Shown: one piece after another, positions 16,523-64,000 of the stretch | Numbering within the stretch: the stretch's first letter is position 1 | Layout of the letters: each line of letters opens with the position of its first letter | Origin: a virus | Taxonomy: Duplodnaviria; Caudoviricetes | Length of the DNA: 64,000 nucleotides | Direction: 5' to 3' (one strand) | IMG/VR virus record: IMGVR_UViG_3300033571_014797 | Location: 2,145 to 66,144 of that record | Program-made: the position numbers and the translations under genes | Notes under the pieces: generated by a model | What the model was told of the DNA's origin: nothing | Seen by the model: the letters and a program-made list of their open reading frames with translations, nothing else | Databases searched by the model: none

Positions 16523-16596
16523 TGGTGGAGAATAAGAGAGTCGAACTCTTGACTGAAGCTTGCAAAGCTACCGTTATCCCGTTTAACTAATTCCCC
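16523..16596 (-). tRNA. tRNA-Ala(TGC), solitary
   Basis: Cloverleaf GGGGAAT..TT TGC AA..TTCGA..ATTCTCC ACCA; G3:U70. Confidence 0.85.
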
Positions 16597-50960: not shown

Positions 50961-51287
50961 ATGGACATGCTTAACAAGGCTTCAATTCTCTCGCTTTTGG
51001 AATCAAACGACCGTGCTATTGCTCGGGCGCTTGTGGTGCTGAATGAGCGCCAAACTGCGGACGAGCAGGTTACCGAACATACACGGCATCAAAATGGTCG
51101 TGGCTTCCGCCCCTGCCATGCTCGTATGGGCACGTCAATGGCCAAGTTCTTCCAGCGTAACGAGTACCTTACTGCCAAGCAGGTTGCTTACTGGCGTAAG
51201 CGGGACCGTGCTGGTAATATGCGGATTGGCATTTATTGGGCCCAGCTGATTGAAGCTGCTCAAGCTAAAGCTGCTAAGGCAGCTTAA
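50961..51287 (+). CDS. Hypothetical early protein
   Basis: AAGGAG RBS; RQTADEQ..T.H.NG.GF. Confidence 0.7.
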   Translation: MDMLNKASILSLLESNDRAIARALVVLNERQTADEQVTEHTRHQNGRGFRPCHARMGTSMAKFFQRNEYLTAKQVAYWRKRDRAGNMRIGIYWAQLIEAAQAKAAKAA

Positions 51288-51354
51288 CCAATTTGGTTGA
51301 CAGTTTGGGTTTTGAACTTATTATAGTGGTATAAGCAGAAACTGGAGCAAACAA

Positions 51355-51531
51355 ATGCAGCGTAATGCTTGGACCTTCTCTCAATACATTGAAGAAATTG
51401 TTCTGCTCAGTGAAATTATAGAAATACCCGGAATGGCGGCCAAGCGGGTCGAGCTTATCCGTGAGGTTTGGAAGAAGTACCCTACAGAATGTTATGACCT
51501 CGGCCTGCGGGATGGCCCTACAGAGGAGTAA
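51355..51531 (+). CDS. Small hypothetical early protein
   Basis: Hand translation MQRNAWTFSQYIEE..; GGAG RBS; promoter at ~51295. Confidence 0.55.
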   Translation: MQRNAWTFSQYIEEIVLLSEIIEIPGMAAKRVELIREVWKKYPTECYDLGLRDGPTEE

Positions 51532-51535
51532 TTCC

Positions 51536-51673
51536 ATGTGGACAGTGACCTACACCTACTATAACAAATATCGCAACGAAAAGCAGTTTGCTAACGAAGT
51601 CAGCGCCAAAAAGTTCTTTTGGTTTATCCAGAAGCAGCGTGGTGTGACCAAGACTGAGATGAGATTTGCGTGA
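51536..51673 (+). CDS. Small hypothetical protein (MWTVTY..)
   Basis: GAGGAG RBS. Confidence 0.5.
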   Translation: MWTVTYTYYNKYRNEKQFANEVSAKKFFWFIQKQRGVTKTEMRFA

Positions 51674-52008
51674 TGGAAAATATCCAACTTTACTACACGT
51701 CATGGTGTAATACTAAAGGCCATGACAAAGTCTGGGGCTACTTCTATCTAGGCGAAAGCAAACATGGACAATATGTAGGCGACTTGCCAATGTTCGTGTT
51801 CTATGGTGCTAGAGGTAAAAGCCTTCAGATTAAAGAACACGTTTATGGTCCTAAACTTATATCTTTGAGACGTAGCAAAGAAAGCAAAGGTTACAAATCT
51901 GTTCCTACAGACGAGTTTTTGGACATTTGTCCAAACTTCTATCAAGAAGTTGACAATAAACTGACTTTTGCTATACTGGGTGGAAACAAATACAAAGCAG
52001 CAAGTTAA
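51670..52008 (+). CDS. WGR-like domain protein
   Basis: HDKVWG..FYGARGK..KESKGY. Confidence 0.55.
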   Translation: MMENIQLYYTSWCNTKGHDKVWGYFYLGESKHGQYVGDLPMFVFYGARGKSLQIKEHVYGPKLISLRRSKESKGYKSVPTDEFLDICPNFYQEVDNKLTFAILGGNKYKAAS

Positions 52009-52020
52009 CAGGAGGTCAGC

Positions 52021-52449
52021 ATGGCATGGGATCAATATGAGGAAGTTTCAGTTGATGAAATGAAAGGCCATGCTTTCTCTCGCATCGAAGTAGATGCAGA
52101 TGACCGCAGTGTAACCTTCTATGGTATGAAGGACCAGCCTTTGTTCCGCATGGAGCATATACAGGACTGTTGTGAGTCTGTGTATCTAGCCGAGGTGATC
52201 GGCAACTGGGACGACCTTATTGGCACTCCTGTATTTGTTGCTGAGTGTGTGAGCAATCATGCAAAACCTCGTGATAATTTGACTATGGATGATGACAAAT
52301 ATTGGGAAGAAGTTGATAGCGAAACTTGGACCTTCTACAAGTTCTCTACCATCAAGGGTAGTGTGACCTTGCGTTGGTATGGTACTAGCAATGGCTACTA
52401 TAGCGAAGGTGTATCAATTATTCCTTGGAGCGAAGACGAAGAGGCATAA
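52021..52449 (+). CDS. Hypothetical phage protein
   Basis: H.QDCCESV..TWTFYKF.T.KG.V.LRW.G.SNGYYSE; AGGAGG RBS. Confidence 0.7.
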   Translation: MAWDQYEEVSVDEMKGHAFSRIEVDADDRSVTFYGMKDQPLFRMEHIQDCCESVYLAEVIGNWDDLIGTPVFVAECVSNHAKPRDNLTMDDDKYWEEVDSETWTFYKFSTIKGSVTLRWYGTSNGYYSEGVSIIPWSEDEEA

Positions 52450-52457
52450 ATTAATGT

Positions 52458-52922
52458 ATGACATATACCGAAACACAATCACGATCTATTGCAAAAACTC
52501 TAACTATTAGAGTTTGTTTTACATTAAGTCATATACTAAATGGCTTTATTGTTAGTGGAGTTTGGTTAACTGGAGTTGTTATTGCCAGTTGGGCAATTCT
52601 AATCAATGCTATTTTGCATTGGCTGCATGAACGTGCTTGGAACTGGGTACAATGGAATCGTAAACCAGGTGATACAATTATGTTTGTTGATGGGCAACCA
52701 CGTACTATCAGCAAGAGTGTTACTTGGCGAGCTTTAATTACTATCAACAACTTCATGATTCCGTATCTAACAACTGGCTCATGGCAAACTGCTCTGGCGT
52801 TCTTAACTGTTGCAACATTATTAAACATTGTTGTTTATTATACACACGAACGAGTATGGAATAAATTTTCTTGGGGCAGAAAATCTTTAGTTGACACAGA
52901 AGAAAACATCGTGTATAAATAA
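52458..52922 (+). CDS. Membrane protein with tandem DUF2061-like repeats
   Basis: Two RS/T..K..T.R...HER.WN units. Confidence 0.7.
   Translation: MTYTETQSRSIAKTLTIRVCFTLSHILNGFIVSGVWLTGVVIASWAILINAILHWLHERAWNWVQWNRKPGDTIMFVDGQPRTISKSVTWRALITINNFMIPYLTTGSWQTALAFLTVATLLNIVVYYTHERVWNKFSWGRKSLVDTEENIVYK
52891..52921 (+). promoter_or_regulatory. Promoter of the leader/tRNA operon
   Basis: TTGACA(52891)-17 nt-TATAAA(52914); the -10 is also an exact TATAAATA late motif. Confidence 0.75.
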
Positions 52923-52951
52923 GAGACAATAAGGAAACAAGGTTCCAAAAA

Positions 52952-53029
52952 ATGTTCAAACGTATGCCCATTAATCATAACTTTACATGCTGGTATGAAG
53001 ATGCCAAGCAAGGGGTTCTGACTATGTGA
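52952..53029 (+). CDS. Putative attenuator leader peptide MFKRMPINHNFTCWYEDAKQGVLTM
   Basis: 25 codons, 19 different amino acids, no non-Met codon repeated; AAGG/AAGGA upstream; 3' end overlaps the antiterminator arm. Confidence 0.75.
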   Translation: MFKRMPINHNFTCWYEDAKQGVLTM

Positions 53030-53058
53030 CATATGTTCACATATGAGTTTGGAACCCC
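53012..53058 (+). promoter_or_regulatory. Antiterminator hairpin
   Basis: GGGGTTCT/GGAACCCC, GACT/AGTT and ATGTGA/TCACAT stems; sequesters the terminator 5' arm. Confidence 0.7.
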
Positions 53059-53085
53059 GAGATAGAAATATCCCGGGGTTTTTTT
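53053..53085 (+). terminator. Intrinsic terminator (attenuator) before the tRNA array
   Basis: AACCCCG-A-GATA GAAA TATC-C-CGGGGTT followed by a T-run. Confidence 0.85.
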
Positions 53086-53095
53086 ATGACAGGCT

Positions 53096-53220
53096 GTTGC
53101 TCCCTCGGCATAAGAGCAACCCTCGACTAGTACGTGGCCATGAATTTGGCGTACAAGTGGTTTCAGCGAGGAAACAAGAAACAGTAATGTTTCTTCACGA
53201 GTGTACCACTAGTGTAGTCG
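53096..53220 (+). ncRNA. Candidate structured ncRNA at the head of the tRNA array
   Basis: GTTGCTC/GAGCAAC hairpin; CGACTA/TAGTCG closing GCCA/TGGC, AGTGGT/ACCACT and AAGAAAC/GTTTCTT stems. Confidence 0.45.
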
Positions 53221-53224
53221 CGAA

Positions 53225-53298
53225 TACCTAGGTCGTTGATCTAAAGGATAGGATGCCTTCGCGTAGGCAATGCGGGTTCGAGTCCCGTACGACAGGTA
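53225..53298 (+). ncRNA. tRNA-like element (atypical anticodon loop, no CCA)
   Basis: T arm GCGGG TTCGAGT CCCGT; TGCCT-N6-AGGCA; GTCGT/ACGAC and TACCT/AGGTA. Confidence 0.55.
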
Positions 53299-53319
53299 CA
53301 CTTCTGAAGAAACTATTAT

Positions 53320-53396
53320 GGCTCCTAAGTCGAAATGGTTAAGACGCTGGCCTGTCACGCCAGAGATAACGGGTTCGATCCCCGTAGGAGTCGCCA
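53320..53396 (+). tRNA. tRNA-Asp(GTC)
   Basis: CTGGC CT GTC AC GCCAG; CCA end. Confidence 0.92.
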
Positions 53397-53397
53397 C

Positions 53398-53473
53398 TCC
53401 AGGATAGTTCAGTCGGTAGAACATCAGACTCTGACTCTGAGTGTCGGTGGTTCGAATCCATCTCCTGGATCCA
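53398..53473 (+). tRNA. tRNA-Gln(CTG)
   Basis: TCAGA CT CTG AC TCTGA; CCA. Confidence 0.92.
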
Positions 53474-53480
53474 AAAGTTT

Positions 53481-53557
53481 GGGGAAGTGCGCTGGAGAGG
53501 CTACAGCAGGGTCTGCAAAACCTTCGAATGTCGGTTCGAATCCGATCTTCCCCTCCA
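53481..53557 (+). tRNA. tRNA-Cys(GCA)
   Basis: GGGT CT GCA AA ACCT; U73; CCA. Confidence 0.88.
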
Positions 53558-53564
53558 ATACAAT

Positions 53565-53640
53565 GGTCCGAATAACGGTTGGTTCCGTCACAAACAAGTC
53601 CAAATTATTTGGTCGGGGTTCGATTCCCTAAGGGCCGCCA
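53565..53640 (+). tRNA. Degenerate tRNA-like gene (Trp CCA?)
   Basis: T arm and GCCA end intact; acceptor and anticodon stems imperfect. Confidence 0.5.
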
Positions 53641-53646
53641 TTTAAT

Positions 53647-53722
53647 GCCGTCAGGGAGGTCTTGGCGATTTCACTGCTCTCATAAGGCAGCTAACTAGGT
53701 TCGATGCCTGGTGACGGCACCA
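53647..53722 (+). tRNA. tRNA-CAT (Met or Ile2)
   Basis: CTGCT CT CAT AA GGCAG; CCA. Confidence 0.85.
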
Positions 53723-53726
53723 ATAT

Positions 53727-53802
53727 CCTAACTTAGTGTTGTTGGTCAGCACGGCTGATTGTGGATCAGCAAGACTAGGTTCGAATCCTAGAGTTAGGAC
53801 CA
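53727..53802 (+). tRNA. tRNA-His(GTG), no G-1, A73
   Basis: GCTGA TT GTG GA TCAGC; CCTAACT/AGTTAGG ACCA. Confidence 0.9.
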
Positions 53803-53821
53803 TATAAAAAATATATACAGT

Positions 53822-54379
53822 ATGCAACTTTTAGAATTTATCGAAACAGTTAATTATCCTAAAACAGACAAATATGATCTGGGTTACATACATGAATTTT
53901 ATAACGACTTGTTTAGTCCTAGGCAACAAACTGTTAAAAATTTATTAGAGATAGGCATGCAAAACGGTTATAGTATGAAACTATGGAGAGATTATTTTGT
54001 TAATGCTGACATATATGGGATAGATATTAACAAATGTGAATCATTAGCAAATCAAAGCCGAATACAACCTATATACAAAAGTGCCTATACTGATGAGGTA
54101 GTTGATAGTTTTGAAAAAAACTTTTTTGATGTCGTCATAGACGATGGCCCCCATACATTTCCTACTATGGAATTCTTTTGTAAAAATTATCTGCCTTTAG
54201 TAAAGCCAGGCGGCTTATTAATACTAGAAGATATTGTAGACATATCTTGGACTGATAAATTTATGCAGATTTTTAATGGTTATGATGCTAAAGTCATACA
54301 TATGGCAGGTTTAGCTAAAACAACTAAACTGCAACAAAAATGGGCGACGGGATTAGATGTAATCGTAGTTCAAAAATAA
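53822..54379 (+). CDS. Class I SAM-dependent O-methyltransferase-like protein
   Basis: TDK..Y; LLEIG..GYS..LWRDYF..IYGIDI; VIDDGPH; PGGLLILED. Confidence 0.8.
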   Translation: MQLLEFIETVNYPKTDKYDLGYIHEFYNDLFSPRQQTVKNLLEIGMQNGYSMKLWRDYFVNADIYGIDINKCESLANQSRIQPIYKSAYTDEVVDSFEKNFFDVVIDDGPHTFPTMEFFCKNYLPLVKPGGLLILEDIVDISWTDKFMQIFNGYDAKVIHMAGLAKTTKLQQKWATGLDVIVVQK

Positions 54380-54384
54380 AGTAA

Positions 54385-54472
54385 GGGAGAGCTGCTCTGA
54401 CGGCGGAAGGGCACCGGACTGTAAATCCGGCACATAGAAACTCAGTTGGTTCGAATCCAACCTCTCCCACCA
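54385..54472 (+). tRNA. tRNA-Tyr(GTA)
   Basis: CCGGA CT GTA AA TCCGG; long variable arm; CCA. Confidence 0.92.
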
Positions 54473-54527
54473 AATAATGTGTTGACACTTACCTTAAAGG
54501 TGTTAATGTAAGCATGTAAGCAAAATA

Positions 54528-54672
54528 AAATGTTATTTGAAAACGTAGCAAACGGTTGTGTACCAGATACTGGCAGGGCAGACAGAGGTTGCTGTTGAAA
54601 TATACAGTGTACGGGTGAAATCCTGGAGGCCATGAGGGATAAACAGGTTTGTTGCGTTTTCAAATAACATTT
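54528..54672 (+). ncRNA. Candidate ncRNA closed by a 26-bp stem
   Basis: AAATGTTATTTGAAAACGTAGCAAAC / GTTTGTTGCGTTTTCAAATAACATTT with two G-U pairs; TTGACA at 54482. Confidence 0.6.
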
Positions 54673-54748
54673 GGACCCTTAGCTCAGTTGGTAGAGCATC
54701 GGACTTTTAATCCGTTGGTCGCCGGTTCGAACCCGGCAGGGTCTACCA
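54673..54748 (+). tRNA. tRNA-Lys(TTT)
   Basis: CGGA CT TTT AA TCCG; CCA. Confidence 0.92.
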
Positions 54749-54754
54749 AAGAAT

Positions 54755-54829
54755 GGGGACAGTAGTGGGTGTACGGATCTCCCTTGCACGGAGATTGTCT
54801 ATAGGGTTCGATTCCCTGGGTCTCCACCA
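54755..54829 (+). tRNA. tRNA-Ala(TGC)
   Basis: TCTCC CT TGC AC GGAGA; G3:U70; weak D arm. Confidence 0.82.
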
Positions 54830-54847
54830 TACACTATAAATATTACT

Positions 54848-55414
54848 ATGCAAGACATTCGTCATTTTATCGACATCTTAGAATCTAAAAATAGACCAAG
54901 CAAGTTATTTTTGGAGAAATTGCCTTACAAAGCATCAGAGCTCGCACCTGTGCTTAGTAAAGAAAATATAGATTATCATTACAACGTACTAAGCAATGGA
55001 TATGTAAATCGATATAACGAAGGCGAAGGAGATCCAGATTTTAATTATGGCGGAGCTATGCTACACAATATATTTTGGCAGCAGTTGCAAGCACCAAAAG
55101 GATCAAATCGTCCTATAGGTATAGTGAAAGAACTAATAGAAGACAAATTTAAGTCATATGATTCATTTGTTGAACAAATGATTACCAGTGCAATGTCTAT
55201 ACAAGGTTCTGGTTGGGTATATTTGTCTAAATCAGGTGACATAAAGACTATACCAAATCAAAATTATAAAACAGATATACTGATGCCCTTAGACATGTGG
55301 GAGCATAGTTTTATGGATTATATTCCAGCTAAGGATGCTAAGAAAAAATACATTACTGCTATGTTACGAATAGTCAATTGGGCAGTTATAAACGATAGAC
55401 TCAATACAAAATAA
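54848..55414 (+). CDS. Fe/Mn superoxide dismutase
   Basis: LPY...L.P, YHY, NYGGAMLHNIFW, QGSGW, DMWEHS. Confidence 0.88.
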   Translation: MQDIRHFIDILESKNRPSKLFLEKLPYKASELAPVLSKENIDYHYNVLSNGYVNRYNEGEGDPDFNYGGAMLHNIFWQQLQAPKGSNRPIGIVKELIEDKFKSYDSFVEQMITSAMSIQGSGWVYLSKSGDIKTIPNQNYKTDILMPLDMWEHSFMDYIPAKDAKKKYITAMLRIVNWAVINDRLNTK

Positions 55415-55420
55415 ATTATC

Positions 55421-55510
55421 GTTGGATCTAGTTACAGGCTTAGGGAAATACCCTTACAAAAACCCTGTCGCAATACTAGACTGCACACGGAACAACACGT
55501 GAGTTCCAGC
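55421..55510 (+). ncRNA. Candidate multibranch ncRNA
   Basis: GTTGGA/TCCAGC, TCTAGT/ACTAGA, ACAGG/CCTGT, AGGG/CCCT, CACG/CGTG. Confidence 0.45.
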
Positions 55511-55520
55511 AAGTTTTTAT

Positions 55521-55596
55521 CAGGGACGACGTAGGGTTAGATTACTCCCGCCCTTGGAAGGCGGGCAACCCGGGGCAGCGCCGGGGTTCCTGACCA
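55521..55596 (+). tRNA. tRNA-Pro(TGG), atypical T loop
   Basis: CCGCC CT TGG AA GGCGG; C1-G72, A73; T loop GGCAGCG. Confidence 0.8.
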
Positions 55597-55602
55597 ATTA
55601 AT

Positions 55603-55676
55603 GCGAGTGTGATGTAATGGTAGCATTACGGTCTCCAAAACCGTCCGTTAGGGTTCAAATCCTTACACTCGTGCCA
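55603..55676 (+). tRNA. tRNA-Trp(CCA)
   Basis: ACGGT CT CCA AA ACCGT; G73; CCA. Confidence 0.92.
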
Positions 55677-55681
55677 AATTT

Positions 55682-55755
55682 GCTTCTGTAGCTCAAAGGT
55701 AGAGCACTCGACTGATAATCGAGAGACGTTGGATCGATACCATCTAGAAGCACCA
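55682..55755 (+). tRNA. tRNA-Ile(GAT)
   Basis: CTCGA CT GAT AA TCGAG; CCA. Confidence 0.9.
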
Positions 55756-55762
55756 AGTTTAT

Positions 55763-55840
55763 TCGCAGGTAGTCATCCAGGTGATGGCGCTCGGCTGTTA
55801 ACCGAGATTGAGATTGGTTCGAGTCCAATCCTGCGAGCCA
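55763..55840 (+). tRNA. tRNA-Asn(GTT)
   Basis: CTCGG CT GTT AA CCGAG; G73; CCA. Confidence 0.9.
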
Positions 55841-55846
55841 TTTTAC

Positions 55847-55921
55847 GGAGCGTTCGTCTATCGGCTAGGACGCTGGCCTTTCAAGCCGGCAAGAGGGGTT
55901 CGATTCCCCTACGCTCTACCA
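55847..55921 (+). tRNA. tRNA-Glu(TTC)
   Basis: CTGGC CT TTC AA GCCGG; CCA. Confidence 0.92.
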
Positions 55922-56017
55922 AAGTTGCTGGACTACTATCCATTGGTTTCTAGATCTGATGGTGTGCTTACCAGTAGAGGATCCCGATCACCTCTATAAA
56001 AACGCGGATGAATTTAT

Positions 56018-56093
56018 GGACCGTTAGCTGAGTTGGTTTTAGCAGGAGACTCTTAATCTCTAGACGGGGGTTCGAATCCCTCACGGTCTACCA
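56018..56093 (+). tRNA. tRNA-Lys(CTT)
   Basis: GGAGA CT CTT AA TCTCT; CCA. Confidence 0.92.
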
Positions 56094-56133
56094 TTAAATT
56101 GCATTTTTAACAAAAGGATGTATACTATAAAAT

Positions 56134-56592
56134 ATGAAAAAAATATTAGTTTTATTATTTGCGCTATTGCCTAATATAGCCCAAGCTGATACTATTATTG
56201 GATTCAAAGGCAAAAATAACGCCTTTGATCATCAAGCATTTGAAAAATATGCAGCTAAACGAAAACTAACACCTGTAGTTTTAAGTGCATTTGATTCTAA
56301 AAATGCCATGCATATTATTCGTATTAATTCTACATATGAATTATATGGTTATAGTTTAGGCGCTGCTAGCGTTGCACAGACCATGCGATTAATAGAAAAA
56401 GAAAAATTACACATGCCTAGATACGTTATTACAGTTGGTGCATACAGAACAACCAATGTTGATTTCAACAAATACAATGTTAAGTTTGACAATTATTTTG
56501 ATGCAAGCGGAGCTGGTACAAAAAGTCCAGGAAAACATTTAGGTGTTAGTCATAGCGATATTATGAGATATGTAGTTGATACATTCTACTAG
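56134..56592 (+). CDS. Secreted small alpha/beta-hydrolase-like protein
   Basis: Signal peptide; GYSLGA nucleophile elbow. Confidence 0.6.
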   Translation: MKKILVLLFALLPNIAQADTIIGFKGKNNAFDHQAFEKYAAKRKLTPVVLSAFDSKNAMHIIRINSTYELYGYSLGAASVAQTMRLIEKEKLHMPRYVITVGAYRTTNVDFNKYNVKFDNYFDASGAGTKSPGKHLGVSHSDIMRYVVDTFY

Positions 56593-56600
56593 GAGATTAC

Positions 56601-56771
56601 ATGAGTAAAAGTAATAAACATGCAGGACAAATCAACATGCGTGGCAAGAAGTACAAGCTCATGCGATGTGGATGTTGTGAATGCATTGACTTTAGAGACA
56701 AGTTTACTGCAAAAGAACATGCAAAAGAAATTAAGGCCGCTTTGGTGAAGGAGGTACTCACGTCTGCCTGA
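56601..56771 (+). CDS. Small Cys-containing protein overlapping tRNA-Phe
   Basis: AGGAG RBS; MSKSNKHAGQINMRGKKYKLMRCGCCECIDFRD..; 56 aa. Confidence 0.55.
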   Translation: MSKSNKHAGQINMRGKKYKLMRCGCCECIDFRDKFTAKEHAKEIKAALVKEVLTSA

Positions 56772-56811
56772 AGAGCAGAAGAACCTGGATCGATACCGGG
56801 AGGCGGCACCA
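56736..56811 (+). tRNA. tRNA-Phe(GAA)
   Basis: TCTGC CT GAA GA GCAGA; CCA. Confidence 0.88.
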
Positions 56812-56816
56812 TTAAT

Positions 56817-56893
56817 GCATCTGTAGCTCAATGGATTAGAGCAGCGGTCTTCGAAACCGTAGGTTGGGAGTTCGAATCTCTCCAGGTGCACCA
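56817..56893 (+). tRNA. tRNA-Arg(TCG)
   Basis: GCGGT CT TCG AA ACCGT; CCA. Confidence 0.92.
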
Positions 56894-56911
56894 ATTATAA
56901 GTAGTATCAAC

Positions 56912-57451
56912 ATGCTTTGTTATAAACCTTTAAAATATCAAAATCATCAATTGGTAAGTAAAAAACTTTATGATTTTACTGTTAATCAAACAAATGTTTT
57001 ACAGAGAGCTATCTTTTGGAACAATATAGATTGTGATCAAGTGTTAGCAGCTATTCCTGAATTACAAGAAGTTCTAGATCAGTACCAGTTGAATAAGCCT
57101 TATCAAACTGCTTTGCTTTATAGTGGCACTATTCAAGGTAACATACATATCGACGGCGGCAAAGACGTTAGAATACTATGGCCAGTTTGCAATACTGAAG
57201 GATCGAAAACTAAATGGTTTGATGTCGATCCAGAATTTATTGTACCACAAAAACAAAAGAATGCAGGATGGATAGTAACTAAACAAGAAGGTCATCGAGT
57301 AATTGATGAATTAGAAATTACTGAACCAATATTCTTCAATTCGGGTATACCTCATGGTATCTATTGCAATCCTAAATATAATAGAAATCAACCGAGAATA
57401 ACATTTGTTATGTTATTCTATCCAAGAATAAATTACTTGCTTGAAGAATAA
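56912..57451 (+). CDS. Hypothetical cupin/2OG-oxygenase-like protein
   Basis: IHIDG...PHG...RI pattern; start moved downstream of the tRNA. Confidence 0.6.
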   Translation: MLCYKPLKYQNHQLVSKKLYDFTVNQTNVLQRAIFWNNIDCDQVLAAIPELQEVLDQYQLNKPYQTALLYSGTIQGNIHIDGGKDVRILWPVCNTEGSKTKWFDVDPEFIVPQKQKNAGWIVTKQEGHRVIDELEITEPIFFNSGIPHGIYCNPKYNRNQPRITFVMLFYPRINYLLEE

Positions 57452-57480
57452 AAAGAATATATAGTAGGTGAATGAAATAT

Positions 57481-57556
57481 GCGGGATTAGCTCAGTGGTA
57501 GTAGCGTCTGCTTTACACGCAGAATGTCGGGAGTTCGACCCTCTCATCCCGCACCA
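57481..57556 (+). tRNA. tRNA-Val(TAC)
   Basis: TCTGC TT TAC AC GCAGA; CCA. Confidence 0.92.
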
Positions 57557-57561
57557 TATAT

Positions 57562-57643
57562 GCCAAGGTGGCTCAGTGGCGACAGCACCGCTCTTGTAAG
57601 GCGGGATACAACACCGGGGGTTCGAGTCCCTCCCTTGGCACCA
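57562..57643 (+). tRNA. tRNA-Thr(TGT), enlarged variable loop
   Basis: CCGCT CT TGT AA GGCGG; 11-nt variable region. Confidence 0.88.
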
Positions 57644-57699
57644 TACTTTGGTAATTAGTAATTTACTTTTTAATTGTAAGTTACGAACATAAATACAAT

Positions 57700-58413
57700 A
57701 TGAATTATCAACTACATTACGATAAACTAATAGATCGTGCAAAACATAGAGTCTTAGAAAGTTATTCAGAAAGACATCATATAATTCCGCGATGCATGGG
57801 CGGGTCTGATGACCTAGACAATCTAGTCAATTTAACTCCTGAAGAACATTATGTTGCACATCAATTATTAGTTAAAATATTTCCTAACAATGCTAAGTTA
57901 ATCAATGCTGCTATAATGATGATCCCAAATCGACCTTCCAATAAATTGTATGGTTGGCTAAGAAAAAAATTTGCTGAAAATCAGAGCATAAATCAAACTG
58001 GATCAGGTAATTCTCAATACGGAACAAGATGGGTTCATAACATCGATTTAAAAGAAAGTAAAAAGATAAAAATTACAGACCCATTGCCTAATGGTTGGCT
58101 GGAAGGCCGTAAGATTAATTTTTATCTAAATATCGTAAATTGTAAAAACTGTAATAAACAGTTTGAACGAATTTCATTAGAAATATATTGTTCTGAAATT
58201 TGCAAGCGACACGATAGATCAGATGCAATTAAACTCATTGACATTAAATTAGATGAAATGCTTGAATACTATTCAAATGTAAGATCAATAGATAAAACAT
58301 TAAAACATTTTGGAGTAAAAGGTTTATCTGACACTGGAAGAGCCGGTAATAGATATTTTTCTAGCATACTTAAAGAAAAGAATATATACGTTAGACCAAG
58401 AACAAAAAAGTAA
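57700..58413 (+). CDS. Free-standing HNH homing endonuclease
   Basis: Y.ERHHIIPRCMGGSDD..NLV.LTPEEHYVAHQLL. Confidence 0.88.
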   Translation: MNYQLHYDKLIDRAKHRVLESYSERHHIIPRCMGGSDDLDNLVNLTPEEHYVAHQLLVKIFPNNAKLINAAIMMIPNRPSNKLYGWLRKKFAENQSINQTGSGNSQYGTRWVHNIDLKESKKIKITDPLPNGWLEGRKINFYLNIVNCKNCNKQFERISLEIYCSEICKRHDRSDAIKLIDIKLDEMLEYYSNVRSIDKTLKHFGVKGLSDTGRAGNRYFSSILKEKNIYVRPRTKK

Positions 58414-58495
58414 GCCTGGGTGGCTCAGCGGCGACAGCAACGCTCTAGTAAGGCGTCATTACACAACGGGGGTTCGAGTCCCTCCCCAGGCACCA
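58414..58495 (+). tRNA. tRNA-Thr(AGT), A34, enlarged variable loop
   Basis: ACGCT CT AGT AA GGCGT; paralog of Thr(TGT). Confidence 0.85.
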
Positions 58496-58553
58496 TCCAA
58501 CAATATCTCTTACGCTTAAAAGAAATTTGCGCACCAGAGAGGTCACTTATTTT

Positions 58554-58628
58554 TGCGGGGTAGAGCATTGGTAGCTCGCTAGCCTCATAAGCTAGAGGTA
58601 GGGTGTTCGATTCACTCCCCCGCAACCA
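58554..58628 (+). tRNA. tRNA-Met(CAT), initiator-like
   Basis: TGCGGGG acceptor; GAGC/GCTC D stem (A11-U24); CT CAT AA. Confidence 0.88.
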
Positions 58629-58629
58629 A

Positions 58630-58950
58630 TTATATTAGATGTGCTTTAAGAAGACTTTTTAAAATAGGGTCTTCGCCGTAGCGTAGAATAGCAAATTCTA
58701 CATCTAAAATTAAATTTTTTAAACTAACGTCAAACCATTCGCCTGATGTTTTATACAGTTTTAAGTGACGATGTATTACAGTTTCCAGCAGCTTAGTTTT
58801 GCATATTTCAGTTTCTTTGCTGTAGTGTAGCTTTAACGGAAACGGATGTCCGGTTTGCAAACTTTTTAATCTTTTTTCAGGATCGCGGCTAATGCCTACT
58901 TTATATGGTGGTTGATCGCTGCCAATAATGTATATGAAACTTGTGGTCAT
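58630..58950 (-). CDS. T5orf172/GIY-YIG family protein
   Basis: FIYIIG..YKVGISRDPEKRL..LQTGHP..E..IH..GEWF. Confidence 0.8.
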   Translation of the reverse strand: MTTSFIYIIGSDQPPYKVGISRDPEKRLKSLQTGHPFPLKLHYSKETEICKTKLLETVIHRHLKLYKTSGEWFDVSLKNLILDVEFAILRYGEDPILKSLLKAHLI

Positions 58951-59013
58951 AATGGATTTATTTATGTACACCAGTAATTCAAAATTCAATAATTTTAACC
59001 ATTAAATAAGTTT

Positions 59014-59454
59014 ATGGAATACGCGATAATATTCATAGCATGGACGTTTGTTATCTATTGGATGCATAGATTAGCACATATTATACCATGGATATCTAAA
59101 ATTCACCATGACCATCATCGATATGTTATAAAAAATCACGTAACCTGGCACTGGTCAAATCTGTTTTTATATAACGATACATGGCTTAGTACTTTGGATT
59201 TATGGATAACAGAAGTTATTCCTACTTTAATTATGAGTTTCTTTTTTGGTTGGTGGTTGTTTATCGCATATTATTTGTGGGCTGCGTTTATTCAAGAGCG
59301 CATTGAACACAATGATAATTTTAATTTTTATCCATTAATAACCAGCGGACGTTGGCATATGATACATCACAAAAATGCTCAATATAATTATGGGATTTTT
59401 ATTCCCGTTTGGGACATTGTTTTTAAAACTAAAAAAGACATGGGTGCTGTATGA
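59014..59454 (+). CDS. Fatty acid hydroxylase/sterol desaturase family protein
   Basis: YWMHRLAH, HHDHH, HMIHH His boxes; NYG...WD. Confidence 0.82.
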   Translation: MEYAIIFIAWTFVIYWMHRLAHIIPWISKIHHDHHRYVIKNHVTWHWSNLFLYNDTWLSTLDLWITEVIPTLIMSFFFGWWLFIAYYLWAAFIQERIEHNDNFNFYPLITSGRWHMIHHKNAQYNYGIFIPVWDIVFKTKKDMGAV

Positions 59455-60428
59455 AAACGCCAGTCAAAGTTGAGCAACCTTTTCCTATATTCCACATCTA
59501 TTGGACGTTAACCGATTTTTGTAATTACAAATGCAATTACTGTGTGCCTAGATCATATGCAGGCGATTATCATTTTAATCGTAAACCAGGGTATCCTTCA
59601 GACGAACAAATTATACAGTTTTTAGATAATTTGGGTCCAATGCATGTTAAAGATAGATTTTTATGTGTTAAAATAAGTGGTGGCGAACCAACCATACATC
59701 CAATGTTACCTTATATCATTAATCGATTAAAAGAATATAAACATAAAAATATTTGTATTATTACAAACGGTTCTAGAAATGTAAAATATTGGCAATCAAT
59801 ATTGCCTATCGATGAAGTAATAATTAGCTTACATCCTGAATACGTGGATATGGAAAAAATAAATGAATTAAGTTGGGCCATAATTGATTCAAAAACAAAG
59901 CTTAATTATAATTTAGCTGTAGATCCCAAACATTGGGACGCAACTGTAAAAATGTATGATAAGCTAGATGATAGATTAAAACATCTAGTAAAACCAAAAG
60001 TTTTATTTGAAAAAGACAATCCTCATCATCCCAACTATCATTATACAACAGAACAATTGACTTGGATGAATAATATCATTAATCAATCTTCGTTTACTAA
60101 ATCTCCGTTAACATCATCATTTCCTGGATTTTATCCAGCTAGTACATTGTATTTTGATGATGGATCTCAGATTTCAACCAGTCAGTATGCTACAATTAGT
60201 CTTAATCAATGGCATAAGATGCGGGGGTGGGATTGTCATGTTGCCAGTCAAGCAATCAAAGTTCAATATTCAGGAAAAGTATTCGCTGGTATTTGCATGG
60301 CTAAACAATTAGGTACTATAGACAATTTTAAATTGGATTATGAGCCACTAAGTTGTACATTTACTACTTGTAAAGATTTACCGGACCTTGCGGTTTCAAA
60401 ATATATACATGAAGAAAGATTACTGTGA
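59451..60428 (+). CDS. Radical SAM protein
   Basis: CNYKCNYC, SGGEPT, ITNGS. Confidence 0.85.
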   Translation: MKTPVKVEQPFPIFHIYWTLTDFCNYKCNYCVPRSYAGDYHFNRKPGYPSDEQIIQFLDNLGPMHVKDRFLCVKISGGEPTIHPMLPYIINRLKEYKHKNICIITNGSRNVKYWQSILPIDEVIISLHPEYVDMEKINELSWAIIDSKTKLNYNLAVDPKHWDATVKMYDKLDDRLKHLVKPKVLFEKDNPHHPNYHYTTEQLTWMNNIINQSSFTKSPLTSSFPGFYPASTLYFDDGSQISTSQYATISLNQWHKMRGWDCHVASQAIKVQYSGKVFAGICMAKQLGTIDNFKLDYEPLSCTFTTCKDLPDLAVSKYIHEERLL

Positions 60429-61246
60429 CTACCGAAAATAATTGGATTAAACATAATTTATTTGATCGTTTACATGATCAATCTTTAGACTTATCGGTTG
60501 AATTAAATCCTAACCCCTTTGTGAAAATGAGCTTTCATGAAGCAGCTGATATAACTGCTCAACGCATATATGAGAAACATAAAAATATATTTCTAAGTTT
60601 TAGCGGCGGCGCTGATAGCGATTATGTGTTTCATGTTTTTCAACGTAATAATATCCCATTTAAACCCATACTAGTAAAAACTACCGGCAATGTTGTTGAA
60701 TTAGGTTATGCATATCATACGTGCAAGAAGTTTAACATTGAACCTATTATAATAGAAGTTGATGATAAAAAATACTTAGACGTCTATTATAGAAACGTCA
60801 TAGCAAAATTAAGCGGAATAGGAATTTGTGCAGTTCCTGGAGTTATTGCCTGCGAATATGCTCGCGACAACAACGGTATTTTAGTTATTGGCGAACATAT
60901 GATAGACCATGACGGCAATAACATATATGCAGGTGTAAACGAATGGGACTATTATAATGAAGTTTTAGTTGGTGATGAGTTTAATATACCATTTTTTAAT
61001 TATACAACAGATTTAACGTATGCAATGTGGAACAGTATATATTCAGAAGAAATTAGCGAGTGGAAATGGAAATTATATGGTTTAGATTATAGACCTGTTA
61101 TTGAATACAGATTTGATTATAATTTTATCACATATAAGAAAAAAATGTTTATGCTGCGTCGATCTAACCCAAATCCTAAATTTGTCTTAGGTAGTAAAGA
61201 GGAAATGTTATCTCTATTAGACAATTTTGCGAATAAATATACTTAA
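60425..61246 (+). CDS. PP-loop (adenine nucleotide alpha hydrolase-like) protein
   Basis: FLSFSGGADS. Confidence 0.65.
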   Translation: MTTENNWIKHNLFDRLHDQSLDLSVELNPNPFVKMSFHEAADITAQRIYEKHKNIFLSFSGGADSDYVFHVFQRNNIPFKPILVKTTGNVVELGYAYHTCKKFNIEPIIIEVDDKKYLDVYYRNVIAKLSGIGICAVPGVIACEYARDNNGILVIGEHMIDHDGNNIYAGVNEWDYYNEVLVGDEFNIPFFNYTTDLTYAMWNSIYSEEISEWKWKLYGLDYRPVIEYRFDYNFITYKKKMFMLRRSNPNPKFVLGSKEEMLSLLDNFANKYT

Positions 61247-61261
61247 TAAAAAGGAAATACA

Positions 61262-61720
61262 ATGCCAATTTCTAGCCCTTTTACTGTTAGACAAATAGTA
61301 ATTAAAAAACCAGGCGACAACTGGAATGGCATTTTTGTCGGCGATTTGAGGAAATCAGTGAGTTCTACTCCCGATCCTAGAGATCTTGAAGGCTCAGAAA
61401 ACACATTTACATTAAACAAATTTAAAGAAGAATGGTCTAAACAATCAAAATTTAGTTGGTCTAGTTATAAATGGGATCGAGAATATGTTAGTGAAAATAC
61501 ACTAATATTTTATTTCTATTTTGATGATCAAACAACTGCGGTAGATTTTTATAATTGGCGCAATACTATTGTTAAACCTGTTCCTGATATCACTAAATTT
61601 AAACCTGAAGAAGGATTTGTTGACAAACTTGAAGATTTAGACCCAAGCAATAGACCTGCAAGATACTTGTTTGAGTGGGAAATAGTAGACAGCGCAGGAA
61701 ATCCGGTTCCAACTAATTAA
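61262..61720 (+). CDS. Hypothetical protein (paralog of next ORF)
   Basis: TPDPRD.EG..WDREYV..NTLI shared. Confidence 0.65.
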   Translation: MPISSPFTVRQIVIKKPGDNWNGIFVGDLRKSVSSTPDPRDLEGSENTFTLNKFKEEWSKQSKFSWSSYKWDREYVSENTLIFYFYFDDQTTAVDFYNWRNTIVKPVPDITKFKPEEGFVDKLEDLDPSNRPARYLFEWEIVDSAGNPVPTN

Positions 61721-61731
61721 GGATAGCAATA

Positions 61732-62151
61732 ATGCCCTATAATTTTACTGTAAAGAAAATTTTTACCAAATATGATGACGACAATTGGAGCGGCCTTGCA
61801 TTACGTAAATTTGGTAGAGTGGATACTACTCCTGATCCTAGAGACGAAGAAGGCAGAGATAATAATCATGCTAGAAATATTAAAAAAGAACACTTTAATC
61901 AACAAAGCAAGTTTATTAATTTGCCATGGGACAGAGAATATGTTGGTGACAATACATTAATTATTAAAACTTATTTTGATGTAGAACAGGATGCTAAAGA
62001 TTTTTATTCACATGAAATAACATATCGTTTTAACATTCCAGTTCCCTCCACAACTACAGCAGTAGCTCCGCCAGAAGGGCTATCACGATATAGAATTACA
62101 TGGGAAATTGAAGATATTGACGGCAACCTAATAGAATTACCTACAGAATAA
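61732..62151 (+). CDS. Hypothetical protein (paralog of previous ORF)
   Basis: TPDPRD.EG..WDREYV..NTLI shared. Confidence 0.65.
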   Translation: MPYNFTVKKIFTKYDDDNWSGLALRKFGRVDTTPDPRDEEGRDNNHARNIKKEHFNQQSKFINLPWDREYVGDNTLIIKTYFDVEQDAKDFYSHEITYRFNIPVPSTTTAVAPPEGLSRYRITWEIEDIDGNLIELPTE

Positions 62152-62154
62152 CAG

Positions 62155-63117
62155 TTGATATATATGTGCATGATATCTACATGCACTAAAATTTTAATAG
62201 CAGCGGCACTATTCATTTTGCCGCTGCCTTCTTTAGCAAACGAATTAACTATTTTAGTTCCTAATATGTCTGGGGGCTATGGTATACATGCACGTATTGT
62301 AGCAAAATATCTTCCTAAGTATATTGATCAAAAAGTTATTGTTAAAGAAATGCCAGGTGCTGCTGGAATCACATTAGCTAATTATCTTTATAATGTTGCT
62401 GCTAAAGACGGCACAGTAATAGGTATTTTAAACAGTAACATTCCATTACAAGGCATGCTTGGCGGCAAAACTATCCAATATAAAATTGAAAACTTTACTT
62501 GGTTAAGTGCAGCACAAGATGGTAGGTTGGAACCTTTTATGCTATGGCGTAAGCTTGATCAATCTGAAATGATAGGCGGTAGTGACTCTACGCTACCTTT
62601 TAGTTATTTTAGGATTATTAATAAATTGTTGAATTGGAACGCAAAAGAAATAGTGGGATACGCCAACGCAAGTGCTGTTAAATTAGCTTTTGAACGCAAT
62701 GAAGTAAATGTTGTATCTAATTCTCTTACCGGAATAAAATCCGTAGCAAGTCATTGGCTAGCTGATAAAAACATTAAACCAATAGTGCAATGGGGTAATG
62801 GCACTACTCGGCATCCTGAATATTTAGATGTTCCCACGCTGGCTGAACTAGTAGTTGACAGCAAGGATAAAAAATTAGTAGAATTGTTGGAATTACAAAA
62901 TGTTTTACTTAGAGCATACGCTGCTCCTCCTTCAATTCCAGCTAATAAAGCTATGGAATTACAAACAGCAATTTGGAGTGTATTTACTGACGCAGAATAT
63001 ATTAATGAAGTTGCTAAAATAGGAATCTCTAATCCTATAAATTATAAAGAAACAGAAAACATTATCGATATGATCGTTAAGAACTTTACTGAGGAAATGA
63101 AAAAAGAATTTCAATGA
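62155..63117 (+). CDS. tctC: TctC/Bug-like tripartite tricarboxylate transporter substrate-binding protein
   Basis: Signal peptide; GG.G..AR..A..L, MPGAAG, A.DG..IG, DVPT..E, A.PP. Confidence 0.75.
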   Translation: MIYMCMISTCTKILIAAALFILPLPSLANELTILVPNMSGGYGIHARIVAKYLPKYIDQKVIVKEMPGAAGITLANYLYNVAAKDGTVIGILNSNIPLQGMLGGKTIQYKIENFTWLSAAQDGRLEPFMLWRKLDQSEMIGGSDSTLPFSYFRIINKLLNWNAKEIVGYANASAVKLAFERNEVNVVSNSLTGIKSVASHWLADKNIKPIVQWGNGTTRHPEYLDVPTLAELVVDSKDKKLVELLELQNVLLRAYAAPPSIPANKAMELQTAIWSVFTDAEYINEVAKIGISNPINYKETENIIDMIVKNFTEEMKKEFQ

Positions 63118-64000
63118 ACTTATATTCTTATAACAATCAATTTTATTCAAACAGACAAGAAGCATTAGAAACAATGTTGTTGAATAAAGATTATAGTTCA
63201 ACTATAAAATATCATTTTCATGATGATTTCTTTAGTCAATTTGATTGGACCGTCGAACCAGATATCGATCTTTCAATTTTGTATAAGCTTAGAGCACAAC
63301 AGTTAAGAGACAAATACAAATATATTATATTGAGTTTTAGCGGCGGCAGTGATAGCACTCAAATATTAAAAGTTTTTCTAAAACACAATATTTTTATTGA
63401 TGAGATACAAATTACTCATTACAAAAGTTTAGTAGAAAAAGTAGATCCTCAAATAGCAAAAACCGATCATGAATTTAAACACCTACTAGAATACGAATAT
63501 GCAGCAACACCTATATTAAAAGAAGTAACAGAAAAAAGTCCTAACACTAAAATAACAAGTTTAGACATTAGTAAATTTACATATGATCAATATGTTTTAG
63601 GTAAGTTTAATGAAAACAAAGCATATGTTGATCCCATAGCAGCACAAAGATTAACAGGTACTAGATTAACTAGTTTAGACAAAGTATATTTGCATCATTA
63701 TAATTTACATATCAAAACTCCTCCAGAATCAACTTGTTTTCTAAGAGGAGTAGATAAACCAGTATTGAAATTAACGCCTGGAAATATATTAACATTTACA
63801 TTTAGTGATGTTGGTAAATTTTTTAGTCATAAAGATGTGTTAAGTCATTATACAATTGAAGATTTTTATTGGAGTAAAGATGCACCTTTAATCCCAATTA
63901 AACAAAGTCATATGATTAAACGTCGCTTTGAAGTGGATGAAAATTTTTGGAATCTATGGTGCAAATGCAAAGATAGTCTTAAAAAAGATATTGATGATCC
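63114..64000 (+). CDS. PP-loop protein (runs off window end)
   Basis: Hand translation MNLYSYNN..DWTVEP..RAQQLRDKYKYIILSFSGGSDS. Confidence 0.7.
   Translation, partial: MNLYSYNNQFYSNRQEALETMLLNKDYSSTIKYHFHDDFFSQFDWTVEPDIDLSILYKLRAQQLRDKYKYIILSFSGGSDSTQILKVFLKHNIFIDEIQITHYKSLVEKVDPQIAKTDHEFKHLLEYEYAATPILKEVTEKSPNTKITSLDISKFTYDQYVLGKFNENKAYVDPIAAQRLTGTRLTSLDKVYLHHYNLHIKTPPESTCFLRGVDKPVLKLTPGNILTFTFSDVGKFFSHKDVLSHYTIEDFYWSKDAPLIPIKQSHMIKRRFEVDENFWNLWCKCKDSLKKDIDD

What the first reader, a model, noticed from the sequence alone, without database searches (positions are those of the whole stretch)
52952..58628. Leader peptide composition mirrors the tRNA inventory of the downstream array
Seen: leader codons 1-20, upstream of the antiterminator arm, cover 16 amino acids (M,F,K,R,P,I,N,H,T,C,W,Y,E,D,A,Q), and each has a tRNA in the array. 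The amino acids with no tRNA that I could find in the array are Ser, Gly and Leu. Ser is absent from the leader, and Gly and Leu occur only inside the structural arm. Lys (AAA/AAG) and Thr (ACA/ACT) each appear with two codons and each has two matching tRNAs (TTT/CTT, TGT/AGT). The match is imperfect for Gln (CAA codon vs CTG anticodon), and Arg CGT, Pro CCC and Ala GCC would need U34 superwobble. Inference: sensor and payload co-evolve.
Basis: partly seen in the sequence, partly recalled or inferred. Interest (0 to 1): 0.8.

Follow-up and report, generated by a model that had tools for sequence, protein, structure and literature searches.

The report
Leader peptide lists downstream phage tRNAs
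A 25-codon leader with a terminator/antiterminator switch precedes this phage's tRNA genes and uses the same amino acids those tRNAs carry, a match that recurs in other uncultured phages and suggests demand-driven control of tRNA supply.

Summary
A promoter, Shine-Dalgarno site, 25-codon ORF (52952-53029), antiterminator and intrinsic terminator sit in front of 19 tRNA genes (53320-58628). All 16 amino acids served by the array occur in the leader (P about 2e-4). One detail is wrong: no tRNA-Pro was found. A tRNA-Val exists, but Val lies in the arm.

The same layout recurs in unrelated uncultured phage contigs. A detector blind to composition gave 14 leader/array units. In these, 131 of 133 array amino-acid types occur in the unit's own leader. 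Shuffling arrays among leaders never matched the observed overlap (0 of 100,000).

The match sits in codons upstream of the antiterminator arm: 229 of 299 residues, against 31 of 74 in the arm. Two phages carry two leaders each, and each leader matches its own sub-array. Gln and Trp residues follow the tRNA-Gln and tRNA-Trp genes between sub-arrays.

Synonymous codon choice shows no extra matching. The likely mechanism is a leader-peptide attenuator that raises tRNA transcription when ribosomes stall for those tRNAs. There is no expression data. Six literature searches found no prior description.

The parts
52891..52919 (+). Sigma-70-like promoter, TTGACA (52891-52896), 17-nt spacer, TATAAA (52914-52919). 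It lies inside the 3' end of the upstream DUF2061 gene.
   Evidence: Sequence and pattern match. The same TTGACA-17-TATAAA is present in L016. Its function is inferred.
52939..52942 (+). Shine-Dalgarno-like AAGG, 9 nt before the ATG. A second AAGGA lies at 52931-52935.
   Evidence: Sequence.
52952..53029 (+). Leader ORF of 25 codons plus TGA stop.
   Evidence: A homologous ORF is present in L015 and L016.
52952..53011 (+). Sensor part, codons 1-20, upstream of the antiterminator arm. 18 of 19 residues after Met1 are amino acids that have a tRNA in the array.
52988..53010 (+). Hairpin just before the arm, covering the conserved TGG TAT GAA GAT codons. It is a possible RNA polymerase pause hairpin.
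   Evidence: RNAfold, and the same hairpin in L016. The pause role is inferred.
53012..53021 (+). Antiterminator 5' arm (segment 2), codons 21-24.
   Evidence: It pairs with 53049-53058 when the terminator 3' arm is withheld: -30.4 kcal/mol, z -5.0.
53024..53042 (+). Small hairpin spanning the stop codon, inside the antiterminator.
   Evidence: L016 has a hairpin of different sequence at the same place.
53049..53059 (+). Segment 3, shared by the antiterminator (53049-53058) and the terminator 5' arm (53053-53059).
53053..53085 (+). Intrinsic terminator: stem 53053-53059 with 53074-53080, then seven T (53079-53085). It is the only terminator found on either strand in 51000-60500.
53086..53318 (+). 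Conserved structured spacer RNA with a tRNA-like T arm (53232-53293). It is transcribed only by read-through or from a promoter in or near the T-run.
   Evidence: RNAalifold found 71 pairs, 10 of them with compensatory changes. The Rfam tRNA model scores 26.2 bits, below threshold.
53320..58628 (+). Array of 19 tRNA genes: D, Q, C, M, H, Y, K(ttt), A, W, I, N, E, K(ctt), F, R(tcg), V, T(tgt), T(agt), M. Five ORFs are interspersed.
   Evidence: ARAGORN; Rfam supports 17 of 19. ORFs by Pfam and PHROGs: methyltransferase 53822-54379, Fe/Mn superoxide dismutase-like 54848-55414, HNH endonuclease 57700-58413, two unknown.
53565..53640 (+). Degenerate tRNA-like element with an encoded CCA end.
   Evidence: Found only by ARAGORN at 80% threshold, called Trp cca, with no Rfam tRNA hit. 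Conserved in contigs of runs X3 and X7.

Best explanation
This is a ribosome-mediated (leader-peptide) transcription attenuator that controls a phage tRNA operon. A host-type promoter starts a transcript that carries a 25-codon ORF.

If ribosomes read the ORF quickly and reach the stop codon, they cover segment 2 (53012-21). Segment 3 then pairs with segment 4 and the terminator stops transcription before the tRNA genes. If a ribosome stalls earlier because a charged tRNA is scarce, segment 2 stays free and pairs with segment 3. The terminator cannot form and the tRNA array is transcribed.

The sensing codons have been selected to name the amino acids whose tRNAs lie downstream. The leader therefore works as an inventory of its payload, and the circuit is a negative-feedback supply control for exactly those tRNAs.

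Shown here: the parts, the mutually exclusive structures, their conservation with changed sequence, and the leader/array match across phages. Inferred: that the ORF is translated, the polarity (stall gives read-through), and the physiological trigger. Candidate triggers are loss of host tRNAs during infection, codon demand of phage genes, or host anticodon nucleases.
For: Anatomy in the window: promoter, SD, ORF, arm, terminator. The terminator is the only one in 51000-60500 on either strand.

The antiterminator (-20.4 kcal/mol) and terminator (-17.9) compete for 53049-53059. L016 keeps both with different letters (AGGGTTTA / TAAACCCT / AGGGTTT) and has a different internal hairpin.

The RNA just after the T-run has a hairpin with 4 compensatory pairs and 10 compensatory pairs overall. 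RNA crossing the terminator is therefore under selection.

The same layout was found by a detector blind to composition. 9 of the 63 short-ORF/terminator candidates lie within 700 nt upstream of a tRNA, where only 2.7% of strand positions lie, and 17 of the 559 terminators lie there (L016 and L095 are one contig).

The match holds across phages:
- Recall is 131 of 133 amino-acid types, and complete in 12 of 14 units. The Fisher joint P is 1e-15, and 0 of 100,000 permutations reach the observed overlap.
- Taking one unit per leader family (6 units) gives P=7e-9.
- The result holds across 8 parameter settings.
- Sensor part against arm part: 229/299 versus 31/74, odds ratio 4.5, P=3e-8.
- Dose relation: 0.89, 1.81, 2.74 and 3.4 leader residues for 0, 1, 2 and 3 tRNA genes.
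- Leaders match their own sub-array and not the other one in L021 and L030.
- Gln and Trp are concordant among homologous leaders.
Against: No expression, ribosome-profiling or termination data were available.

Each amino acid occurs only once or twice in the leader. Classical attenuators use runs of regulatory codons, so a single codon may respond only to near-total loss of a tRNA.

Synonymous codon choice does not fit the anticodons better than the phage's general usage (Fisher P 0.53-0.88).

The window's leader has Pro, Gly and Leu without tRNAs. Other leaders carry 2-12 unmatched amino-acid types.

Promoter-like sequences lie just after the terminator. In the window this is ATGACA-17-CATAAG, in L016 TTGACA-17-CATAAG, and L021 has two strong ones. 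The array may therefore also be transcribed independently.

The units are partly related to one another. The within-family permutation is only modest (16 of 720).

The layout is not universal. No such leader was found at the arrays of L005/L007, L049, L080 and L105, nor in the two cultured phages examined, Salmonella phage Stitch and Aeromonas phage 4_4572.

All loci were fetched through neighbouring DUF7448 or DUF2061 genes, so the sample is not random.
Confidence: 0.72

Rival explanations
1. The leader is a general translation-speed sensor. It is an almost complete amino-acid pangram that reports overall ribosome progress and is not tuned to the particular tRNAs downstream.
For: The window leader holds 19 of 20 amino acids in 25 codons (P=4e-4). 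L016 holds 17 in 23 (P=0.013). L146 holds all 20 in 46. There is no codon-level tuning.
Against: Other leaders are not unusually diverse: 14 types in 27-29 residues in L021b, L030a and L087. Leaders match their own sub-array and not the other one in the same phage. Permuting arrays among leaders destroys the fit (0 of 100,000).
Confidence: 0.1
2. The short ORF and terminator are a separate small gene, or the end of the upstream operon. The tRNA array is transcribed from its own promoter just after the terminator.
For: Promoter-like hexamers follow the T-run in the window, L016 and L021. T-rich tracts can serve as UP elements (general knowledge).
Against: This does not explain the leader/array match. 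It does not explain why the ORF's 3' end is complementary to the terminator's 5' arm in every unit. The hairpin that would contain the -10 element shows 4 compensatory pairs, so it acts as RNA in transcripts that start upstream of it.
Confidence: 0.08
3. Regulation acts through the nascent peptide, as with TnaC or SecM. A conserved peptide motif would stall the ribosome in response to a ligand, and the composition match would be incidental.
For: Peptide motifs are conserved among homologues: WYED in the window and L016, SNPGxDxC in the b-type leaders, and SEG in the a-type leaders.
Against: These motifs overlap conserved RNA hairpins or arms, which explains their conservation. No motif is shared between leader families. 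This reading does not predict the inventory match.
Confidence: 0.06
4. The match in the window is coincidence.
For: One claimed match (Pro) is false. Codon-level P is only 0.04-0.06.
Against: It was replicated in independent leader families picked by structure only.
Confidence: 0.03

Closest known systems
Leader-peptide transcription attenuators of amino-acid operons (trpL, hisL, thrL, leuL, pheL; the multivalent ilvGMEDA leader)
   Same: Promoter, short translated leader, terminator, and an alternative antiterminator that overlaps the end of the leader ORF. The leader codons name the thing being regulated. This description of the known systems is from my own knowledge, not from a call.
   Different: The payload is tRNA genes rather than enzymes. 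The leader holds 4-18 different amino acids once or twice each instead of runs of one to three. It is phage-encoded. One array can be split into sub-operons, each with its own matching leader.
pheST (pheM leader) attenuation of an aminoacyl-tRNA synthetase operon
   Same: A leader-peptide attenuator that controls a component of the translation machinery for the amino acid it senses (recalled, not from a call).
   Different: It senses a single amino acid (Phe), controls a protein payload, and is bacterial rather than viral.
T-box riboswitches
   Same: They sense tRNA charging status and switch between terminator and antiterminator to adjust translation supply genes (recalled).
   Different: A T-box binds tRNA directly with no ORF. 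No T-box or any other Rfam cis-regulator was found in 52000-64000 at E<=1.
Ribosome-stalling attenuators that sense translation inhibitors (erm, mef/msr, vmlR leaders)
   Same: A stalled ribosome in a short leader ORF remodels the downstream RNA to allow expression. Seen only as titles and abstracts in the listings.
   Different: Those respond to drugs acting on the ribosome. Their leader composition does not mirror a downstream gene set.
tRNA clusters of cultured phages (T4, T5 and relatives)
   Same: Clustered tRNA genes interspersed with small ORFs and homing endonucleases.
   Different: No leader attenuator was detected at the arrays of the T5-like Salmonella phage Stitch or Aeromonas phage 4_4572. 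I know of none reported for T4 (recalled).

Membership tests
Ribosome-mediated (leader-peptide) transcription attenuator | Short ORF with start codon and ribosome-binding site in the 5' leader, downstream of a promoter | tested here: met
   ORF 52952-53029, AAGG 9 nt upstream, TTGACA-17-TATAAA at 52891. Translation itself is not shown.
Ribosome-mediated (leader-peptide) transcription attenuator | Intrinsic terminator between the leader ORF and the regulated genes | tested here: met
   7-bp G+C-rich stem plus seven T at 53053-53085.
Ribosome-mediated (leader-peptide) transcription attenuator | Mutually exclusive antiterminator that uses the terminator's 5' arm and a segment a terminating ribosome would cover | tested here: met
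   53012-21 pairs with 53049-58, and the stop codon lies 6 nt after the arm. The same holds in 13 of 13 units folded and in L016 with changed letters.
Ribosome-mediated (leader-peptide) transcription attenuator | Leader codons correspond to the product that is regulated | tested here: met
   Recall 16/16 in the window and 131/133 over 14 units. The match is enriched upstream of the arm.
Ribosome-mediated (leader-peptide) transcription attenuator | Runs or clusters of the regulatory codon | tested here: not met
   Each amino acid occurs 1-2 times in the window's leader, with a mean of 1.8 residues per single tRNA gene.
Ribosome-mediated (leader-peptide) transcription attenuator | Read-through depends on leader translation and on tRNA charging | not testable with these tools
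   No RNA data could be brought to bear on this window.
T-box riboswitch | Match to the T-box covariance model (specifier loop and T-box motif) | tested here: not met
   No such hit in 52000-64000 at E<=1.
Arrest-peptide attenuators (TnaC/SecM-like) | A conserved arrest motif that acts in the exit tunnel | tested here: inconclusive
   WYED is conserved between the window and L016 but coincides with a conserved RNA hairpin. No motif is shared across leader families.

The most novel reading that the evidence does not exclude
Some phages run per-amino-acid, demand-driven feedback on their own tRNA supply. Each tRNA sub-operon is gated by a leader peptide that spells out the amino acids of the tRNAs behind it. 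Loss of any of those host tRNAs, through host shut-off, codon demand or anticodon-nuclease defence, would then switch on exactly the matching phage tRNAs. This would be the first attenuator class whose payload is tRNA genes, and a built-in sensor of tRNA-targeting immunity.
Probability: 0.5. Interest if true: 0.92.

Novelty: new variant of a known kind. Interest (0 to 1): 0.87.

Why it matters
How phages regulate their tRNA genes, and why they carry them, are open questions. A leader that lists the downstream tRNAs implies that tRNA expression is tied to a shortage of those same tRNAs. That makes the supply-on-demand and counter-defence ideas directly testable with simple reporters.

It also extends leader-peptide attenuation to RNA-gene payloads and to highly multivalent sensing of up to 18 amino acids.

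It gives annotators a rule for finding transcription units inside phage tRNA arrays. It also offers a compact natural part that reports the charging state of chosen tRNAs.

Tried and rejected
**Close relatives with full arrays.** DNA patterns from the conserved spacer RNA found only L015 and L016 in viral contigs. They gave six unrelated chance hits in genome contigs, with no tRNA and no similarity. The best source of close relatives was therefore never searched.

**Cultured relatives.** There were no near or distant DNA matches to the leader regions of the window, L021 or L068 in the phage collection. The regions around the DUF7448 homologue of Xoo-sp15, the array of Stitch and the array of Aeromonas phage 4_4572 have no such leader.

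**Expression.** No RNA holder was listed for the window. Only DNA contigs of four runs were laid.

**Codon-level mirror.** Rejected as unsupported.

**T4-type late promoter TATAAATA.** There are 5 copies against about 13 expected from base composition. It is not enriched, although 4 of the 5 lie just before start codons.

**Pairing of the SD-proximal GGTTCCAAA (52941-49) with segment 3.** It appears in one whole-region fold but is not conserved in L016, so it was set aside.

**Consensus fold of five a-type leaders.** The result was weak: -3.8 kcal/mol, 16 pairs, 7 with compensatory changes, and a poor alignment.

**Supplements.** Supplements of papers were not consulted.


Full report
**What the window is.** The window is 64,000 nt of a 66,144-nt virus record. 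It encodes a tail sheath, tail tube, large terminase and helicase of a myovirus. The tail sheath is only 30-40% identical to any cultured phage. Related contigs reach 145-168 kb, so the genome, and with it the tRNA set, is probably incomplete.

**The locus.** ARAGORN finds 19 tRNA genes on the + strand between 53320 and 58628: D, Q(ctg), C, M, H, Y, K(ttt), A(tgc), W, I, N, E, K(ctt), F, R(tcg), V(tac), T(tgt), T(agt), M. Rfam supports 17 of them. Met 53647 and Ala 54755 are atypical.

There is no Pro, Ser, Gly or Leu tRNA, and lowering the ARAGORN threshold to 90% does not add one. At 80% only implausible extras appear. Five ORFs sit among the tRNAs: a methyltransferase, an Fe/Mn superoxide-dismutase-like protein, an HNH endonuclease and two unknowns.

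Upstream lie these elements in order:
- TTGACA-17-TATAAA at 52891-52919
- AAGG at 52939
- the ORF 52952-53029, encoding MFKRMPINHNFTCWYEDAKQGVLTM
- a terminator at 53053-53085

This terminator is the only one my scan finds on either strand in 51000-60500.

**The switch.** Codons 21-24 (53012-21) pair with 53049-58, which overlaps the terminator's 5' arm (53053-59). With the 3' arm withheld this antiterminator forms at -30.4 kcal/mol for the 84-nt stretch (z -5.0). The terminator alone is -15.1. The stop codon lies 6 nt after the arm, so a terminating ribosome would cover the arm but would not reach segment 3. Efficient translation therefore favours termination, and an earlier stall favours read-through. 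This polarity is an inference from the geometry.

**Conservation.** L015 and L016 are two short IMG/VR contigs about 85% identical over this region. They keep the promoter, the ORF (in L016, MMHTKQKSPFINRWYEDTGRVYD), both alternative helices with changed letters, and an unrelated hairpin over the stop codon.

The 235 nt between the terminator and the first tRNA form a conserved structure with 10 compensatory pairs. Four of them lie in the hairpin that begins a few bases after the T-run. RNA that has passed the terminator is therefore under selection.

DNA contigs of four environmental runs, three labelled freshwater and one marine, hold the leader region at 91-99% identity with rearranged arrays.

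**Is the match more than chance in the window?** All 16 amino acids served by the array occur in the 25-residue leader (P=0.0002). 15 of the 16 occur in codons 1-20. The leader's extra amino acids are Pro, Gly and Leu. The peptide holds 19 of the 20 amino acids (P=4e-4, and 1 of 16,260 windows of the phage's own proteins).

At codon level, 16 of 20 codons are readable by strict wobble against a 59% baseline (P=0.044). Resampling synonymous codons shows no excess.

**The decisive comparison.** While looking upstream of other tRNA arrays in loci fetched through the neighbouring DUF7448 gene, I found the same layout in sequences that cannot be aligned with the window. The layout is promoter, short ORF, an arm at the ORF's 3' end complementary to a terminator's 5' arm, a spacer of about 170-590 nt, and then tRNAs.

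I then wrote a detector that ignores composition. It requires an ATG ORF of 12-60 codons ending 8-50 nt before a hairpin with a T-run, at least 5 or 6 complementary bases between the ORF's end and the terminator arm, and a tRNA within 700 nt.

In the first 96 sequences (1.5 Mb), 9 of 63 candidates lay before tRNAs, where only 2.7% of strand positions lie. Over 162 sequences it gave 23 units and 16 distinct leaders. I dropped two near-duplicates (L068, L031), leaving 14 units. One of these is an obviously spurious unit on the window's minus strand, which I kept in the count.

A sub-array was defined mechanically as the same-strand tRNAs up to the next leader or a gap of more than 2.5 kb.

Results:
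- 131 of 133 array amino-acid types occur in the unit's own leader, and recall is complete in 12 of 14 units.
- The Fisher-combined joint P is 1e-15. The units are partly related, so this figure overstates independence.
- Shuffling arrays among leaders gave a summed Jaccard index of 5.82 +/- 0.44 against 8.19 observed, with 0 of 100,000 shuffles reaching it.
- One unit per leader family (6 units) gives P=7e-9.
- Eight other parameter settings gave 0 of 20,000 each.

**Where the signal sits.** For this test I also dropped the spurious minus-strand unit, leaving 13. Residues upstream of the arm are array amino acids in 229 of 299 cases. Residues in the arm are array amino acids in 31 of 74 cases (odds ratio 4.5, P=3e-8). 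That is what a stall sensor predicts.

Leader residues per amino acid rise with the number of tRNA genes for it: 0.89, 1.81, 2.74 and 3.4 residues for 0, 1, 2 and 3 genes (Spearman 0.51 over 247 cells, which are not independent).

**Co-evolution.** L021 and L030 each hold two attenuators that split the array.

| Locus | Leader | tRNAs that follow |
|---|---|---|
| L021 | MKLVLTSVEYSTVGSSNPGADACGVCKS | N S G T L P A G S V D E |
| L021 | MTTMMKHIQQYCIRWFSEGRSVS | W I K Q C M R F H |

Precision and recall for the first L021 leader are 0.81 and 1.00 against its own sub-array, and 0.15 and 0.33 against the other. For the second they are 0.59 and 1.00 against 0.36 and 0.50.

In L030 the tRNA-Trp and tRNA-Gln genes lie in the other sub-array. 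There it is the homologous other leader that carries W and Q. Across five a-type and three b-type leaders, Q and W are fully concordant. Cells for amino acids whose tRNA presence varies are concordant in 28 of 35 cases (a-type) and 11 of 15 (b-type). One b-type discordance (Ala in L030) comes from a tRNA that only Rfam found. Within-family permutation gives 16 of 720.

**What goes against it.**
- There is no expression evidence.
- Codons are single rather than in runs.
- There is no codon-level tuning.
- Leaders carry unmatched residues. In the window these are P, G and L. Tyr occurs in L021b and L030a without a tRNA-Tyr, and Phe and Thr in L069 without matching tRNAs.
- Promoter-like hexamers lie just after several terminators.
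- The layout is absent from 4 of about 14 distinct arrays in the fetched contigs (L005-7, L049, L080, L105) and from both cultured phages examined.
- The sample came from neighbours of two gene families and is not a random draw.

**Literature.** Six full-text searches were read as listings of titles and abstract openings only. They returned nothing on leader peptides or attenuators in front of phage or bacterial tRNA genes. The library lacks most subscription journals, and supplements were closed.

**Verdict.** Its inference is supported by an independent test across phages. This is a leader-peptide attenuator of a new design, a multivalent inventory leader that gates tRNA genes. The mechanism and its trigger remain to be shown at the bench.

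Noticed in passing
window 53086-53322 (+); L016 4858-5100: A conserved RNA of about 235 nt lies between the terminator and the first tRNA. A 22-bp long-range stem encloses a tRNA-like domain with a GGGTTCGAGTCCC T arm, and 10 pairs show compensatory change. It matches no Rfam family. It could be a processing signal or a stable small RNA like the T4 species 1 and 2 RNAs (that comparison is recalled).
   Followed up: partly
window 53565-53640 (+): A degenerate tRNA-like element with an encoded CCA end and weak D and T arms.
   Followed up: partly
window 52021-52449 (+); L021, L030, L106-L111 about 10001-10350; L068 6408-6743; L102 11995-12351: A DUF7448 (phrog_2650) protein of unknown function sits inside or beside tRNA arrays in many unrelated phages, including the T5-like Salmonella phage Stitch. 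It may have a tRNA-related role.
   Followed up: no
L005 15214 and 19223; L007; L106 520; L049 18188: Relatives' arrays carry tRNAs with anticodons tca and cta, which ARAGORN labels SeC and Pyl. These are potential suppressors of TGA and TAG, hinting at stop-codon recoding or late-gene control in those phages.
   Followed up: no
L030 9769-9841: A tRNA found by Rfam that ARAGORN reads with a four-base anticodon (an 8-nt loop). It is a possible frameshift-suppressor-type tRNA.
   Followed up: no
L003 8379-8738; L008 7036-7454: Permuted tmRNA genes (tags ANDNAPIENRLAA and ANDNAPLVMALAA) lie next to tRNA-Arg(tct) in phage contigs related through the DUF2061 gene.
   Followed up: no
window 54848-55414 (+) and 53822-54379 (+): An Fe/Mn superoxide-dismutase-like ORF and a SAM methyltransferase are embedded in the tRNA array. 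They would be co-regulated by the attenuator.
   Followed up: no
window 16523-16596 (-) and 16806-16897 (-): A second tRNA-Ala(tgc) sits alone on the other strand 36 kb away, with a weak tRNA-Ser(gct) candidate beside it that appears only at lowered threshold. No convincing leader precedes them.
   Followed up: partly
window 52977-52980 and 53288/54677 (run X2): A close relative in one freshwater-labelled run has His9Pro and Asn10Ile in the leader. A contig in the same run joins the spacer RNA directly to tRNA-Lys(ttt), skipping the block that holds tRNA-His. It cannot be told whether the two come from the same strain.
   Followed up: no
window 23876-25225, 47218-48234, 59451-60428: Three radical-SAM-domain genes occur in one phage fragment.
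   Followed up: no
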